From NCBI RefSeq assembly GCF_009931435.1, contig NZ_CP043414.1: DNA of 64,000 nucleotides; one strand, 5' to 3'. The translations under genes were made by a program, and so were the position numbers. The DNA comes from Escherichia coli. Its GTDB lineage: Bacteria; Pseudomonadota; Gammaproteobacteria; Enterobacterales; Enterobacteriaceae. Below, one piece after another: positions 1,565 to 34,990 of the stretch. Within the stretch, counting starts at the first letter, position 1, and each line of letters starts with the position of its first letter. A model generated the notes under the pieces. The model did not search any database, had not been told where the DNA came from, and saw only the letters and a list, made by a program, of their open reading frames with translations.

Positions 1565-1712
1565 TGATCGGTAGGCCGGATAAGGCGCTCGCGCCGCATC
1601 CGGCTACGGTGCCGACTGCCTGATGCGACGCTCGCGCGTCTTATCAGGCCTACAAATTCTCGCACCATCCGGCAACGGTGCCTAATGCGACGCTTACCGA
1701 GTCTTATCAGCC
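1565..1712. repeat. REP/BIME cluster (about three REP units) between phnA and phnB
   Basis: Repeated GCCGGATAAGGCGC / GCCTGATGCGACGC palindromic units in alternating orientation. Confidence 0.8.
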
Positions 1713-19807: not shown

Positions 19808-21270
19808 TCAATCGTCAACTTTCACGCCTGCTGTTGTGCAGCATTCTCGGCAGCACGACGCTGATTTCCGGCTGTGCCCTGGTACGTAAGGATTCTGCGC
19901 CTCATCAACAGCTCAAACCGGAACAAATCAAACTGGCCGATGATATTCATCTTGCCAGCTCCGGTTGGCCGCAGGCGCAGTGGTGGAAACAACTCAATGA
20001 CCCGCAGTTGGATGCTTTGATCCAACGGACGCTAAGTGGTTCACACACCCTCGCCGAAGCGAAACTGCGGGAAGAAAAAGCGCAGTCGCAGGCCGATTTG
20101 TTAGATGCCGGTTCACAATTACAGGTCGCAGCGTTAGGGATGCTCAACCGCCAACGTGTCTCGGCGAACGGCTTTTTAAGCCCTTATGCTATGGATGCGC
20201 CAGCACTGGGTATGGACGGGCCGTACTATACGGAAGCCACAGTCGGTTTGTTTGCCGGACTGGATCTTGATTTGTGGGGTGTGCATCGCTCAGCGGTTGC
20301 CGCCGCCATTGGCGCGCATAATGCAGCGCTGGCAGAAACCGCAGCAGTAGAGCTATCGCTGACCACGGGCGTAGCGCAGCTTTATTACAGTATGCAGGCC
20401 AGCTATCAGATGCTCGATCTGTTAGAACAAACTCGCGATGTGATTGATTACGCGGTGAAAGCGCACCAGAGCAAAGTGGCGCACGGCCTGGAAGCGCAAG
20501 TGCCTTTCCACGGCGCGCGGGCGCAGATTCTGGCGGTCGATAAACAAATTGCTGCCGTTAAAGGGCAAATCACCGAAACGCGAGAATCTCTGCGTGCATT
20601 GATTGGCGCAGGAGCCAGCGATATGCCGGAGATCAAAGCGGTGGCATTACCGCAAGTCCAGACCGGTATTCCGGCGACACTCTCTTATGAGTTGCTCGCC
20701 AGACGCCCGGATCTGCAAGCCATGCGTTGGTATGTTCAGGCGTCATTAGATCAGGTGGATTCCGCGCGGGCGCTGTTCTACCCGAGCTTTGATATCAAAG
20801 CATTTTTCGGCCTTGATGCCATCCACCTGGATACCTTATTCAAAAAAACCAGTCGCCAGTTCAATTTCATTCCTGGTCTGAAATTACCGCTGTTTGATGG
20901 TGGACGGTTGAATGCCAATCTCGAAGGCACGCGCGCCGCCAGCAACATGATGATTGAACGTTACAACCAGTCAGTACTGAATGCGGTGCGCGACGTTGCA
21001 GTCAACGGCACGCGTCTGCAAACGCTCAACGACGAGCGGGAGATGCAGGCAGAACGCGTAGAAGCAACGCGCTTCACCCAGCGCGCTGCCGACGCCGCCT
21101 ACCAACGAGGCTTAACCAGTCGCTTACAGGCCACCGAAGCCCAGTTGCCGGTGCTTGCCGAAGAGATGTCATTACTGATGCTGGACAGCCGCCGGGTGAT
21201 CCAAAGCATTCAGTTGATGAAATCGCTGGGTGGCGGGTATCAGGCGGCTCCCGTCGTCGAGAAAAAATAA
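19804..21270 (+). CDS. mdtP: Outer-membrane efflux factor MdtP (TolC/OprM family lipoprotein), 488 aa
   Basis: ORF track; lipobox LISGCA; 4-bp overlap with mdtO. Confidence 0.9.
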   Translation: MINRQLSRLLLCSILGSTTLISGCALVRKDSAPHQQLKPEQIKLADDIHLASSGWPQAQWWKQLNDPQLDALIQRTLSGSHTLAEAKLREEKAQSQADLLDAGSQLQVAALGMLNRQRVSANGFLSPYAMDAPALGMDGPYYTEATVGLFAGLDLDLWGVHRSAVAAAIGAHNAALAETAAVELSLTTGVAQLYYSMQASYQMLDLLEQTRDVIDYAVKAHQSKVAHGLEAQVPFHGARAQILAVDKQIAAVKGQITETRESLRALIGAGASDMPEIKAVALPQVQTGIPATLSYELLARRPDLQAMRWYVQASLDQVDSARALFYPSFDIKAFFGLDAIHLDTLFKKTSRQFNFIPGLKLPLFDGGRLNANLEGTRAASNMMIERYNQSVLNAVRDVAVNGTRLQTLNDEREMQAERVEATRFTQRAADAAYQRGLTSRLQATEAQLPVLAEEMSLLMLDSRRVIQSIQLMKSLGGGYQAAPVVEKK

Positions 21271-21299
21271 AATGTCAGCCGCGTGATGGCTGTCACGCG

Positions 21300-21345
21300 G
21301 TATTTCGTTTCGTCACGTCAAAACTGACGACAGCCTGTTTTTCGT
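21300..21345 (+). promoter_or_regulatory. Putative FhlA upstream activating sequence for fdhF
   Basis: Inverted repeats TCGTCACGTCAAAAC-TGACGACAG about 80-110 bp upstream of the sigma54 promoter; assigned by position and symmetry only. Confidence 0.35.
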
Positions 21346-21399
21346 CAGAGTTTTGAACAAATAGTGCCCGTAATATCAGGGAATGACCCCAAATAAAAT

Positions 21400-21416
21400 G
21401 TGGCATAAAAGATGCA
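21400..21416 (+). promoter_or_regulatory. Sigma54 (-24/-12) promoter of fdhF
   Basis: TGGCAT-N5-ATGCA at 21401-21416 matches TGGCAC-N5-TTGCA with exact GG-N10-GC spacing, about 50 bp upstream of the fdhF ATG. Confidence 0.75.
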
Positions 21417-21467
21417 TACTGTAGTCGAGAGCGCGTATGCGTGATTTGATTAACTGGAGCGAGACCG

Positions 21468-23615
21468 ATGAAAAAAGTCGTCACGGTTTGCCCCTATTGC
21501 GCATCAGGTTGCAAAATCAACCTGGTCGTCGATAACGGCAAAATCGTCCGGGCGGAGGCAGCGCAGGGCAAAACCAACCAGGGTACCCTGTGTCTGAAGG
21601 GGTATTATGGCTGGGATTTCATTAACGATACCCAGATCCTGACCCCGCGCCTGAAAACCCCCATGATTCGTCGCCAGCGTGGCGGCAAACTCGAACCTGT
21701 TTCCTGGGATGAGGCACTGAATTACGTTGCCGAGCGCCTGAGCGCCATCAAAGAGAAGTACGGTCCGGATGCCATCCAGACGACCGGCTCCTCGCGTGGT
21801 ACGGGTAACGAAACCAACTATGTAATGCAAAAATTTGCGCGCGCCGTTATTGGTACCAATAACGTTGATTGCTGCGCTCGTGTCTGACACGGCCCATCGG
21901 TTGCAGGTCTGCACCAATCGGTCGGTAATGGCGCAATGAGCAATGCTATTAACGAAATTGATAATACCGATTTAGTGTTCGTTTTCGGGTACAACCCGGC
22001 GGATTCCCACCCTATCGTGGCGAATCACGTAATTAACGCTAAACGTAACGGGGCGAAAATTATCGTCTGCGATCCGCGCAAAATTGAAACCGCGCGCATT
22101 GCTGACATGCACATTGCACTGAAAAACGGCTCGAATATCGCGCTGTTGAATGCAATGGGCCATGTCATTATTGAAGAAAATCTGTACGACAAAGCGTTCG
22201 TCGCTTCCCGTACAGAAGGCTTTGAAGAGTATCGTAAAATCGTTGAAGGCTACACGCCAGAGTCGGTTGAAGATATCACCGGCGTCAGCGCCAGTGAGAT
22301 TCGTCAGGCGGCGCGGATGTATGCCCAGGCGAAAAGCGCCGCCATCCTGTGGGGCATGGGTGTAACCCAGTTCTACCAGGGCGTGGAAACCGTGCGTTCT
22401 CTGACCAGCCTCGCGATGCTGACCGGTAACCTCGGTAAGCCGCATGCGGGTGTAAACCCGGTTCGTGGGCAAAACAACGTGCAGGGTGCCTGCGATATGG
22501 GCGCGCTGCCAGATACTTACCCTGGCTACCAGTACGTGAAAGATCCGGCTAACCGCGAGAAATTCGCCAAAGCCTGGGGTGTAGAGAGTCTGCCAGCACA
22601 TACCGGTTATCGCATCAGCGAGCTACCGCATCGCGCAGCGCATGGTGAAGTGCGTGCCGCGTACATTATGGGCGAAGATCCGCTACAAACTGACGCGGAG
22701 CTGTCGGCAGTACGTAAAGCCTTTGAAGATCTGGAACTGGTCATCGTTCAGGACATCTTTATGACCAAAACCGCGTCGGCGGCGGATGTCATTTTACCGT
22801 CAACGTCGTGGGGCGAGCATGAAGGCGTGTTTACTGCGGCTGACCGTGGCTTCCAGCGTTTCTTCAAAGCAGTTGAACCGAAATGGGATCTGAAAACGGA
22901 CTGGCAGATTATCAGTGAAATCGCCACCCGTATGGGTTATCCGATGCACTACAACAACACCCAGGAGATCTGGGATGAGTTGCGTCATCTGTGCCCGGAT
23001 TTCTACGGTGCGACTTACGAGAAAATGGGCGAACTGGGCTTCATTCAGTGGCCTTGTCGCGATACTTCAGATGCCGATCAGGGGACTTCTTATCTGTTTA
23101 AAGAGAAGTTTGATACTCCGAACGGTCTGGCGCAGTTCTTCACCTGCGACTGGGTAGCGCCAATCGACAAACTCACCGACGAGTATCCGATGGTACTGTC
23201 AACGGTGCGTGAAGTCGGTCACTACTCTTGCCGTTCGATGACCGGTAACTGTGCGGCACTGGCGGCGCTGGCTGATGAACCTGGCTACGCACAAATCAAT
23301 ACCGAAGACGCCAAACGTCTGGGTATTGAAGATGAGGCATTGGTTTGGGTGCACTCGCGTAAAGGCAAAATTATCACCCGTGCGCAGGTCAGCGATCGTC
23401 CGAACAAAGGGGCGATTTACATGACCTACCAGTGGTGGATTGGTGCCTGTAACGAGCTGGTTACCGAAAACTTAAGCCCGATTACGAAAACGCCGGAATA
23501 CAAATACTGCGCCGTGCGCGTCGAGCCGATCGCCGATCAGCGCGCCGCCGAGCAGTACGTGATTGACGAGTACAACAAGTTGAAAACTCGCCTGCGCGAA
23601 GCGGCACTGGCGTAA
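21468..23615 (+). CDS. fdhF: Formate dehydrogenase H (selenocysteine-containing molybdoenzyme), 715 aa including Sec at the in-frame TGA 21885-21887
   Basis: ORF track entries 21468..21887 and 21936..23615 are in the same frame, separated only by TGA and a short stretch; N-terminal CxxCxxGC motif; readthrough translation is continuous. Confidence 0.9.
21885..21930 (+). other. UGA-Sec codon plus SECIS hairpin (SelB-binding element) of fdhF
   Basis: TGA immediately followed by CACGGCCCATCGGTTGCAGGTCTGCACCAATCGGTCGGTAATGGCG, which can form the stem-loop expected for a bacterial SECIS. Confidence 0.8.
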
Positions 23616-23630
23616 TACAGTCCTTTCTAC

Positions 23631-23657
23631 AGCCTCCTTTCGGAGGCTGTTTTTTTA
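23631..23657 (+). terminator. Rho-independent terminator of fdhF
   Basis: AGCCTCC-TTTCG-GGAGGCT followed by TTTTTTT. Confidence 0.85.
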
Positions 23658-24398: not shown

Positions 24399-24450
24399 TG
24401 TAGGCCTGATAAGACGCGGCAAGCGTCGCATCAGGCATCCACACATTGCC
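24399..24450. repeat. REP element between yjcO and gltP
   Basis: TGTAGGCCTGATAAGACGCG...CGTCGCATCAGGC palindromic unit. Confidence 0.75.
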
Positions 24451-24476
24451 GGGTGTATGTCCCCGGCAATCCTCAA

Positions 24477-34865: not shown

Positions 34866-34990
34866 TTACCGGATGCGATCCGGGCAACAAGTCGGAAACG
34901 ATTTGTAGGCCTGATAAGACGCGACAGCGTCGCATCAGGCATTGATTGCCGGATGCGGCGTATAACGCCTTATCCAGCCTACATTCGGCG
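34866..34990. repeat. REP/BIME cluster between acs and yjcH
   Basis: CCGGATGCGATCCGGGC and TGTAGGCCTGATAAGACGCG...CGTCGCATCAGGC units. Confidence 0.75.

What the first reader, a model, noticed from the sequence alone, without database searches (positions are those of the whole stretch)
21300..21930. fdhF recoding unit: sigma54 promoter, in-frame UGA (Sec140) and SECIS hairpin
The two ORF-track fragments 21468..21887 and 21936..23615 are one gene interrupted by TGA, directly followed by a stem-loop consistent with the known fdhF SECIS. Upstream there is a canonical -24/-12 element (TGGCAT-N5-ATGCA) and inverted repeats that may be the FhlA UAS. Ordinary gene callers would split or truncate this gene.
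Basis: partly seen in the sequence, partly recalled or inferred. Interest (0 to 1): 0.3.

Follow-up and report, generated by a model that had tools for sequence, protein, structure and literature searches.

The report
E. coli fdhF selenocysteine recoding unit
This is the ordinary, textbook fdhF gene of Escherichia coli (formate dehydrogenase H): one gene whose in-frame UGA at codon 140 is read as selenocysteine with the help of an RNA hairpin right after it, transcribed from a sigma-54 promoter.

Summary
This is a known system.

- **One gene:** ORFs 21468..21887 and 21936..23615 share a frame. The only internal stop is TGA at 21885-21887, codon 140.
- **Protein:** The 715-aa read-through product is identical to crystallised E. 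coli FDH-H (1AA6/1FDO/2IV2), whose non-standard residue sits at position 140.
- **SECIS:** Rfam SECIS_2 matches 21880-21934 at 87.1 bits (gathering score 70). The MFE fold equals the Rfam consensus structure. The published rules are all met: 11-nt spacer, 17-nt mini-helix GGUUGCAGGUCUGCACC, U17/U18 bulge, GGUC loop.
- **RNA-level selection:** Across 106 distinct enterobacterial fdhF sequences, 75% of four-fold sites inside the SECIS are frozen, against 2% outside.
- **Promoter:** GTGGCATAAAAGATGCA (21400-21416) is the 17-mer bound by sigma-54 in K-12 ChIP-seq.
- **UAS:** A block at 21308-21356 carries TCGTCA/TGACGA hexamers, is conserved across genera, and resembles the hyc-hyp and hydN upstream regions. 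It is the probable FhlA UAS; binding was not shown here.

Caveats:
- Fold stability alone (z about -1) and the -24/-12 motif count alone (1 found, 0.51 expected) are not significant.
- The sel genes are not in the window.
- RefSeq already annotates fdhF as a single CDS.

The parts
21278..21301 (+). Intrinsic-terminator-like hairpin of the upstream gene mdtP (GCCGCGTGA-TGGC-TGTCACGCGGT followed by ATTTCGTTTC). It marks the 5' boundary of the fdhF unit and is not part of the UAS.
   Evidence: Terminator scan and inverted repeat I2. The mdtP ORF ends at 21270. The region shows no cross-genus conservation.
21308..21356 (+). Probable FhlA upstream activating sequence. It contains hexamers TCGTCA (21310), TGACGA (21325) and TCGTCA (21342), the core CGTCAAAACTGACG (21316-21329), and the inverted repeat TCAAAACT/AGTTTTGA. 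It lies about -118 to -70 from the inferred transcription start.
   Evidence: This is the only conserved block upstream of the -24 element in 82 distinct enterobacterial fdhF upstream regions. TGACGA sits at -76 in 59 of 82 and TCGTCA at -59 in 58 of 82. It is the only cluster of three or more TCGWCA hexamers in the 64-kb window. The same hexamer family is clustered upstream of the K-12 hycA, hypA and hydN sigma-54 promoters. It has a 3-mismatch match to a published FhlA consensus. It is identical to K-12.
21400..21416 (+). Sigma-54 (-24/-12) promoter GTGGCATAAAAGATGCA, with GG at 21402-21403 and GC at 21413-21414. The inferred transcription start is near 21426, giving a 5' UTR of about 42 nt.
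   Evidence: Pattern match. The 17-mer is identical to the K-12 sigma-54 ChIP-seq site OS41 for fdhF (PMC4591121). A gSELEX RpoN site lies in the mdtP-fdhF spacer (PMC8743547). The Salmonella orthologue TGGCATAAAACATGCATA was bound in ChIP-chip (PMC3844500). The strict motif is present in 81 of 105 fdhF loci, 51-87 nt before the ATG. No sigma-70-like site was found on the + strand.
21455..21458 (+). Shine-Dalgarno GGAG, with 9 nt between it and the ATG
   Evidence: Read directly from the sequence.
21468..23615 (+). fdhF coding sequence, 715 codons plus TAA. It encodes formate dehydrogenase H, a Mo-bis-MGD, [4Fe-4S], selenocysteine enzyme.
   Evidence: Translation. The product is identical over 715 residues to PDB 1aa6/1fdi/1fdo/2iv2/7z0t. 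Pfam finds Molybdop_Fe4S4, Molybdopterin and Molydop_binding. C8, C11, C15, C42, H141 and R333 are present. RefSeq annotates it as fdhF.
21885..21887 (+). In-frame UGA, codon 140, decoded as selenocysteine. The stop context is UGAC.
   Evidence: It aligns to the non-standard residue X140 of the PDB chain. The TGA lies exactly 417 nt after the ATG in nearly all of the 120 loci from other Enterobacterales.
21880..21934 (+). SECIS hairpin. The lower stem is 21880-21884 paired with 21930-21934, and it encloses the UGA. The SelB-binding apical mini-helix is 21899-21915 (GGUUGCAGGUCUGCACC), with bulged U at 21901/21902 and loop GGUC at 21906-21909.
   Evidence: Rfam RF01988 SECIS_2 scores 87.1 bits against a gathering score of 70, E=1e-18, full length. 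The MFE structure is identical to the Rfam consensus. The published rules are met: 11-nt spacer, nt 15-31, U17, G23/U24 (PMC8659212). Synonymous sites are frozen across 106 sequences. 95.3% of cells are paired against 20-47% in slid controls.
23629..23657 (+). fdhF intrinsic terminator: ACAGCCTCC-TTTC-GGAGGCTGT followed by TTTTTTT, starting 14 nt after the TAA.
   Evidence: Terminator scan and sequence.

Best explanation
The region is the monocistronic fdhF gene of an E. coli strain together with its control elements.

Transcription: it starts about 12 nt downstream of the GC of a sigma-54 -24/-12 promoter (21400-21416). RNA polymerase-sigma-54 sits there as a closed complex until the enhancer-binding protein FhlA, activated by formate, binds the repeated TCGTCA-type sites of the UAS (21308-21356) and drives open-complex formation by ATP hydrolysis and DNA looping.

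Translation: it begins at ATG 21468. When the ribosome reaches UGA 21885-21887, the apical 17-nt mini-helix of the SECIS hairpin lies 11 nt downstream. It tethers SelB-GTP-Sec-tRNA(Sec), which delivers selenocysteine to the A site in competition with RF2. Translation then continues to TAA 23613-23615.

Product: the 715-aa selenoprotein FDH-H carries Sec140 as a molybdenum ligand. It is the formate-oxidising subunit of the formate hydrogenlyase complex. A hairpin plus T-run terminator follows the stop.

Shown here: frame continuity, protein identity, SECIS model match and fold, RNA-level purifying selection, identity of the promoter 17-mer with an experimentally bound site, and conservation of the UAS block.

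Inferred from established knowledge of the K-12 system: SelB tethering, FhlA binding, formate induction and the exact transcription start.
For: - Frame and single internal TGA at codon 140.
- 715 of 715 identity to PDB FDH-H, with the non-standard residue at 140. Pfam architecture matches, and C8, C11, C15, C42, H141 and R333 are present.
- The locus is annotated fdhF between mdtP and yjcO in 5419 of 5426 complete E. coli genomes, as one 2148-nt CDS.
- Rfam SECIS_2 scores 87.1 bits, above the gathering score of 70. The MFE fold equals the consensus structure. The 55-nt element is identical to K-12. The published SECIS geometry is met.
- Four-fold synonymous sites in codons 141-157 have mean entropy 0.32 bit and 75% are frozen. 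In flanking fdhF codons the figures are 1.19 bit and 2%.
- The sigma-54 17-mer is identical to the ChIP-seq site OS41. There is a gSELEX RpoN site, the Salmonella orthologue is bound, and the motif is present in 81 of 105 loci.
- The UAS block is conserved with position-fixed hexamers and is shared with hyc-hyp and hydN.
- Terminators lie on both sides.
- selAB, selD and selC are present in at least 5424 of 5426 E. coli genomes.
Against: - Thermodynamic stability of the hairpin is not exceptional for its composition (z -1.0 and -1.2).
- There is no double-sided covariation in the SECIS (0 pairs), because the amino-acid sequence pins one side of every pair. Two Rfam pairs (8-47 and 17-39) are often unpaired in relatives.
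- The -24/-12 pattern alone is expected 0.51 times per 64 kb.
- The published degenerate FhlA consensus matches the UAS only at 3 mismatches and matches 119 places in the window at that stringency.
- selA, selB, selC, selD, fhlA and rpoN are not in the window, so the trans-acting machinery of this particular genome is not verified.
Confidence: 0.97

Rival explanations
1. The TGA is a genuine stop. Either fdhF is a pseudogene inactivated by a nonsense mutation, or the two ORFs are separate genes.
For: A mechanical ORF list shows two ORFs. The second begins with an ATG at 21936.
Against: - The TGA is at the same codon in 5419 E. coli genomes and in about 120 loci from other Enterobacterales.
- It aligns with the selenocysteine position of the crystal structures.
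- A SECIS above the Rfam gathering score follows it.
- Synonymous sites after it are frozen, which a pseudogene would not show.
- ATG 21936 is internal Met157 with no Shine-Dalgarno before it.
- The Pfam Molybdopterin domain spans residues 61-487, across the TGA.
Confidence: 0.01
2. The UGA is read through mainly by a mechanism not involving selenocysteine, such as near-cognate Trp/Cys-tRNA suppression favoured by the weak UGAC context. The hairpin would only slow the ribosome.
For: The context UGA-C is present. Hairpin stability is unremarkable. This window gives no view of the sel genes.
Against: - The apical mini-helix, its bulged U and its GGUC loop are invariant in 32 distinct SECIS sequences at positions free to change synonymously. 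That fits sequence-specific protein recognition, not mere stability.
- The solved structures contain a non-standard residue at position 140.
- The sel genes are near-universal in E. coli.
- Recoding efficiency of 30-40% by the Sec machinery is reported for the fdhF SECIS (PMC4513850).
Confidence: 0.01
3. This rival concerns one sub-claim only. The conserved block 21308-21356 would not be the FhlA binding site. It would instead be another conserved signal, such as a site for a different regulator (NarL/NarP, ModE, IHF) or a remnant of the mdtP 3' end, with the true UAS elsewhere.
For: - FhlA binding was not tested here.
- The published degenerate consensus fits only at 3 mismatches.
- The primary footprinting papers are not in the held library.
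- The hexamer cluster alone arises in 7.5% of simulations.
Against: - It is the only conserved block upstream of the promoter.
- It lies at -118 to -70, within the usual 70-150 bp window for bEBP enhancers (PMC3844500).
- The same TCG(A/T)CA hexamers cluster upstream of the three other FhlA-dependent sigma-54 promoters of K-12.
- The block contains the palindromic GTC-N6-GAC core of the published FhlA matrix.
Confidence: 0.12

Closest known systems
E. coli K-12 fdhF (b4079, formate dehydrogenase H; PDB 1AA6/1FDO/2IV2, and 7Z0T in the FHL complex)
   Same: The gene order mdtP-fdhF-yjcO is the same. The protein sequence is identical over 715 residues. The 55-nt SECIS, the sigma-54 17-mer and the UAS block are all identical.
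   Different: There are only neutral differences. The 2.5-kb region is 98.1% identical in nucleotides. There are three upstream SNPs, at 21277, 21358 and 21392, all outside the -24/-12 element and the hexamers. The coding changes seen are synonymous.
Salmonella enterica fdhF (STM4285) and other enterobacterial fdhF orthologues
   Same: They share Sec at codon 140, an invariant apical SECIS mini-helix, a sigma-54 promoter (Salmonella TGGCATAAAACATGCATA, bound in ChIP-chip and FhlA-assigned), and position-fixed TGACGA/TCGTCA hexamers upstream.
   Different: Nucleotide identity is about 87-89%. They differ in promoter spacer bases, promoter-to-ATG distance (51-87 nt) and the first hexamer (consensus TCGACA rather than TCGTCA).
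FhlA-dependent sigma-54 promoters of hycA, hypA and hydN (formate regulon)
   Same: Each has a -24/-12 element with clustered TCG(A/T)CA hexamers upstream of it (RpoN gSELEX sites).
   Different: They drive different genes, and the number and arrangement of hexamers differ. In hyc-hyp one UAS region serves two divergent promoters.
Hydrogen-dependent CO2 reductase FdhF (PDB 7QV7) and other Mo/W-bis-PGD formate dehydrogenases
   Same: The catalytic subunit is homologous (E=8e-198 for 7qv7_S).
   Different: These are relatives from other complexes, not orthologues. Their recoding signals and regulation were not examined.

Membership tests
Bacterial SECIS, fdhF type (Rfam RF01988 SECIS_2) | Covariance-model score at or above the curated gathering score, over the full model length | tested here: met
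   87.1 bits against a gathering score of 70, model positions 1-55 of 55, E=1e-18.
Bacterial SECIS, fdhF type (Rfam RF01988 SECIS_2) | In-frame UGA immediately 5' of the hairpin, inside a longer reading frame | tested here: met
   TGA at 21885-21887 is codon 140 of a 716-codon frame.
Bacterial SECIS, fdhF type (Rfam RF01988 SECIS_2) | 17-nt apical stem-loop at nt 15-31 from the U of UGA (11-nt spacer), bulged U17, and G23/U24 in the loop | tested here: met
   nt 15-31 read GGUUGCAGGUCUGCACC, the spacer is CACGGCCCAUC (11 nt), the loop is G22-G23-U24-C25, and U17 or U18 is bulged. The rule is quoted from PMC8659212.
Bacterial SECIS, fdhF type (Rfam RF01988 SECIS_2) | Selection on the RNA independent of the encoded protein | tested here: met
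   75% of four-fold sites are frozen inside the element against 2% outside, in 106 sequences. Compensatory covariation could not be tested because there were no double-sided changes.
Bacterial SECIS, fdhF type (Rfam RF01988 SECIS_2) | SelB binding and Sec insertion, with selA, selB, selC and selD in the same genome | not testable with these tools
   The window holds no tRNA and no sel gene. Population-level proxy: selAB in 5425, selD in 5425 and selC in 5424 of 5426 E. coli genomes. The element is identical to the experimentally studied K-12 element.
Formate dehydrogenase H (FdhF; Mo-bis-MGD oxidoreductase) | Domain architecture of Fe4S4, molybdopterin oxidoreductase and molybdopterin-dinucleotide-binding domains | tested here: met
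   PF04879 at 1-54, PF00384 at 61-487 and PF01568 at 576-682, all above their cut-offs.
Formate dehydrogenase H (FdhF; Mo-bis-MGD oxidoreductase) | Sequence identity to the solved enzyme, including cluster cysteines and catalytic Sec140, His141 and Arg333 | tested here: met
   The product is identical to 1aa6_A over residues 1-715. C8, C11, C15, C42, stop/Sec140, H141 and R333 were confirmed.
Sigma-54-dependent, enhancer-activated promoter (FhlA/formate regulon) | GG at -24 and GC at -12 with canonical spacing (TGGCAC-N5-TTGCW type) | tested here: met
   TGGCATAAAAGATGCA lies at 21401-21416. On its own this is not above chance in 64 kb (0.51 expected).
Sigma-54-dependent, enhancer-activated promoter (FhlA/formate regulon) | Sigma-54 holoenzyme occupancy of the site | not testable with these tools
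   The identical 17-mer is a ChIP-seq site in K-12 (PMC4591121), there is a gSELEX site (PMC8743547), and the Salmonella orthologue is bound (PMC3844500).
Sigma-54-dependent, enhancer-activated promoter (FhlA/formate regulon) | Conserved enhancer (UAS) about 70-150 bp upstream, carrying the activator's repeated sites | tested here: met
   A conserved block lies at -118 to -70 with position-fixed hexamers in 82 sequences. The same hexamers occur at hyc-hyp and hydN.
Sigma-54-dependent, enhancer-activated promoter (FhlA/formate regulon) | Match to the published FhlA site consensus, and FhlA binding | tested here: inconclusive
   CGTCAAAACTGACG matches TGWCRAWRATGWCA with 3 mismatches, but the consensus gives 119 hits in the window at that stringency. 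Binding cannot be tested here.
Sigma-54-dependent, enhancer-activated promoter (FhlA/formate regulon) | Absence of a competing sigma-70 promoter | tested here: met
   No sigma-70-like site was found on the + strand between 21150 and 23800 (simple consensus scan).

The most novel reading that the evidence does not exclude
The most novel reading not excluded concerns the extent of the constraint. Synonymous-site freezing is not confined to the 17-nt SelB-binding mini-helix, which published work defines as the minimal SECIS. It extends through the whole 55-nt hairpin, including the basal helix 21880-21884/21930-21934 that encloses the UGA itself: the third positions of codons 141, 142, 151, 152 and 155 are invariant or nearly so in 106 sequences. 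This could mean the lower stem has a selected function of its own, such as timing of SelB release or shielding the UGA from RF2. That would be a refinement of a known system rather than a new one, and part of it is already discussed in the SECIS literature.
Probability: 0.15. Interest if true: 0.2.

Novelty: already known. Interest (0 to 1): 0.04.

Why it matters
It matters only as quality control. The result shows that the first-stage reader can recognise a recoded selenoprotein gene and its sigma-54 promoter from raw sequence. It also shows that a stop-interrupted pair of ORFs here is a real single gene and should not be reported as a pseudogene or a split gene. Biologically this is the founding example of bacterial selenocysteine recoding and of the FhlA/formate regulon, both studied since the 1980s, and nothing in this copy departs from it. 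The synonymous-site test used here is a simple, reusable way to demonstrate an intragenic RNA element when covariation is impossible.

Tried and rejected
I repeated it with Cys.
- **Thermodynamic significance of the hairpin** was not significant: z -1.0 for 21882-21930 and -1.2 for 21880-21934. I therefore do not use stability as evidence.
- **Chance expectation of the -24/-12 pattern** was not significant alone: 1 found, 0.51 expected.
- **The published degenerate FhlA consensus** (from PMC7658346) is too unspecific, with 119 matches at up to 3 mismatches. I replaced it with a cross-species footprint and a comparison with other FhlA promoters.
- **Compensatory covariation in the SECIS** was uninformative. 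There were 0 double-sided changes, and shuffles equalled the observed value. I replaced it with the synonymous-site entropy test.
- **Primary papers on the fdhF UAS and FhlA footprints** could not be read. PMC180993 is not held. Two further searches found no text giving UAS coordinates. The exact published UAS limits are therefore not verified. My recollection that the UAS lies roughly 110 bp upstream of the start is memory only.
- **Looking for selC or other sel components in the window** found none.
- **Pseudogene, two-gene and non-Sec read-through readings** were considered and rejected (see rivals).
- **The inverted repeat at 21279-21300** was considered as a UAS candidate and rejected in favour of the mdtP terminator.
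Full report
**Observation.** The mechanical ORF list shows 21468..21887 (139 aa) and 21936..23615 (559 aa) on the + strand. Both starts and the TGA at 21885 are 0 mod 3. Translating 21468-23615 in one frame gives 716 codons with a single internal stop, TGA at codon 140, and a terminal TAA.

A stem-loop follows the TGA. Region 21882-21930 folds at -14.9 kcal/mol. The 55 nt at 21880-21934 fold at -19.7 kcal/mol into exactly the consensus structure of Rfam SECIS_2. These energies are not unusual for the composition: z is -1.0 and -1.2, and 34 and 25 of 200 shuffles fold as well. Stability alone therefore proves nothing.

**What the gene is.** The read-through product, with Cys substituted for the stop for searching, is identical over all 715 residues to PDB chain 1aa6_A, 'formate dehydrogenase H' (also 1fdi, 1fdo, 2iv2, 7z0t). 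The PDB sequence has its non-standard residue X at position 140. Pfam finds the Fe4S4, molybdopterin-oxidoreductase and molybdopterin-dinucleotide-binding domains, and the second of these spans the TGA. C8, C11, C15, C42, H141 and R333 are present.

Megablast finds the 2.5-kb region in 5419 of 5426 complete E. coli genomes. There it is annotated fdhF as a single 2148-nt CDS, lying between mdtP and yjcO as in K-12. The window is 98.1% identical to K-12 and 99.2% identical to strain RMDEC465 over this region.

**The SECIS.** Rfam RF01988 (SECIS_2) matches 21880-21934 full-length at 87.1 bits against a gathering score of 70 (E=1e-18). It is the only SECIS in the window. The 55 nt are identical to K-12.

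Counting from the U of UGA, nt 4-14 form an 11-nt spacer. Nt 15-31 are GGUUGCAGGUCUGCACC, with one of U17/U18 bulged and a G22-G23-U24-C25 loop. This is the geometry a review gives for the E. coli element: a 17-nt upper stem-loop at nt 15-31, 11 nt from UGA, with U17, G23 and U24 critical for SelB (PMC8659212).

**Independent SECIS test.** I scanned one genome per species with a codon-degenerate pattern that fixes only the peptide U-HGPSVAGLHQ. This gave 120 loci across Enterobacterales, and almost all have the ATG exactly 417 nt before the TGA.

In 106 distinct coding sequences, four-fold sites in codons 141-157 have mean third-position entropy of 0.32 bit, and 75% fall below 0.2 bit. In flanking fdhF codons the figures are 1.19 bit and 2%. 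The third positions of codons 142, 144-149, 151 and 155 never change. That is purifying selection on the RNA, not on the protein.

A pair count on the 32 distinct 55-mers gives 95.3% paired cells against 20-47% for slid controls. There are seven pairing-compatible one-sided changes and no double-sided covariation, which is expected because the protein fixes one side of each pair. Rfam pairs 8-47 and 17-39 are frequently broken, and the apical helix is invariant.

**The promoter.** TGGCATAAAAGATGCA lies at 21401-21416, with GG at 21402-3 and GC at 21413-4, 54 nt from the ATG. One such match in 64 kb is not above chance (0.51 expected). However, the 17-mer GTGGCATAAAAGATGCA is letter-for-letter the sigma-54 ChIP-seq motif OS41 assigned to fdhF in K-12 (PMC4591121). 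A gSELEX study places an RpoN holoenzyme site in the mdtP-fdhF spacer (PMC8743547). In Salmonella the orthologous TGGCATAAAACATGCATA is bound, and fdhF is listed as FhlA-dependent (PMC3844500).

The strict motif occurs 51-87 nt before the ATG in 81 of 105 fdhF loci, and several others carry a TGGCAT-N5-CGGCA variant. No sigma-70-like site is found on the + strand. From the -12 GC I infer a start near 21426 and a 5' UTR of about 42 nt. This seems to correspond to the 'distance 41' column of the ChIP-seq table, which is my interpretation.

**The UAS.** I aligned 82 distinct upstream regions on the -24 element without gaps. This shows one conserved block at -93 to -45 from the TGGCA, which is window 21308-21356, or about -118 to -70 from the inferred start. 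TGACGA sits at -76 in 59 sequences and TCGTCA at -59 in 58. At -91 there is a TCGTCA in 20 sequences, and the consensus there is TCGACA.

In the window these hexamers are at 21310, 21325 and 21342. This is the only place in 64 kb with three or more TCGWCA hexamers within 45 nt, although 15 of 200 Markov simulations give some such cluster. The K-12 hycA-hypA spacer and the hydN upstream region, which are the other FhlA-dependent sigma-54 promoters, carry the same TCG(A/T)CA hexamers clustered upstream of their -24/-12 elements.

A published FhlA matrix consensus (PMC7658346) matches CGTCAAAACTGACG (21316-21329) at 3 mismatches but is too degenerate to be decisive. I therefore regard 21308-21356 as the probable FhlA enhancer (about 0.85). 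Binding itself is inferred.

The stronger inverted repeat at 21279-21300 is followed by a T-rich tail, lies 8 nt after the mdtP stop and is not conserved. It is the mdtP terminator. A second terminator (23629-23650 plus T7) follows the fdhF stop, so the gene is monocistronic.

**Mechanism.** Formate-activated FhlA bound at the UAS remodels the sigma-54 closed complex at 21400-21416. The mRNA is translated from 21468. At UGA-140 the SECIS mini-helix tethers SelB-GTP-Sec-tRNA(Sec) and selenocysteine is inserted in competition with RF2. One study of the fdhF SECIS reports 30-40% efficiency (PMC4513850). The 715-aa FDH-H then joins hydrogenase 3 in formate hydrogenlyase. The trans-acting genes are not in the window, but selAB, selD and selC are present in at least 5424 of 5426 E. 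coli genomes.

**Rivals.** A pseudogene or two-gene reading is excluded by the conservation of the TGA, the frozen synonymous sites, the domain spanning the stop and the crystal structures. It is also excluded by the lack of a ribosome-binding site before ATG 21936, which encodes internal Met157. Read-through without Sec is not supported, because the sequence-specific features of the mini-helix are invariant. The only real uncertainty is whether the conserved upstream block is the FhlA site.

**Verdict.** The finding is correct and ordinary. It is the already-known fdhF recoding unit of E. coli, identical in protein and in all cis elements to the K-12 prototype. Novelty: already known. Interest is very low.

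Noticed in passing
window 1574-1650 (+), 34908-34979 (-), 24403-24468 (-): Three matches to Rfam naRNA4 (REP/BIME-type repeat). The first two are above gathering (99.2 and 73.5 bits against 59.5). The third is below it (46.4 bits) and sits in the yjcO-gltP spacer just downstream of the fdhF unit.
   Followed up: no
window 42233-42373 (+): Full-length match to the Hfq-binding sRNA sraL (RF01408, 153 bits against a gathering score of 39).
   Followed up: no
window 12000-36000: No complete E. coli genome in the collection exceeds 98.4% identity over these 24 kb. Only 4233 of 5426 genomes cover at least 80% of it in one place. The source is therefore an E. coli-group lineage not exactly represented there, with some variable content near fdhF.
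   Followed up: partly
L017, L025, L035, L043, L050, L051, L081, L119 (second fdhF-like copies in Pluralibacter, Cedecea, Serratia, Klebsiella and others): These are more divergent fdhF copies (N-terminal identity about 83-90%). They have the same invariant SECIS mini-helix but no -24/-12 element. Their ATG sits just after the stop codon of an upstream ORF (…CTGCTGTT(C/T)TAA), so they appear to be operonic rather than driven by their own sigma-54 promoter.
   Followed up: partly
L015, L031, L049, L068, L113: The fdhF upstream regions carry a variant -12 element, TGGCAT-N5-CGGCA instead of (A/T)TGCA. They keep the GC dinucleotide but lose the preceding T.
   Followed up: partly
L109 and L110: The frame upstream of the TGA is open for only 47 and 86 codons, and there is no ATG at -417. 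These are possibly disrupted fdhF pseudogenes or assembly errors in those genomes.
   Followed up: no
window 21265-21275 and 21391-21401: There is an exact 11-nt direct repeat, AAATAAAATGT. One copy overlaps the mdtP stop codon and the other abuts the -24 element. In K-12 the second copy reads ACATAAAATGT because of the SNP at 21392, so the exact repeat is lineage-specific and probably chance.
   Followed up: partly
window 21407-21419 / 21435-21447: There is an imperfect 13-nt inverted repeat (77% complementary), AAAAGATGCATAC / GTATGCGTGATTT. It spans the -12 element and the early 5' UTR. The 5' UTR side is not conserved across genera. Its significance is unknown.
   Followed up: no
window 21882-21940 (+): The same hairpin also gives a sub-threshold match to Rfam SECIS_3 (35.8 bits against a gathering score of 63), with several non-canonical pairs. 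This is a cross-match between related SECIS models, not a second element.
   Followed up: yes
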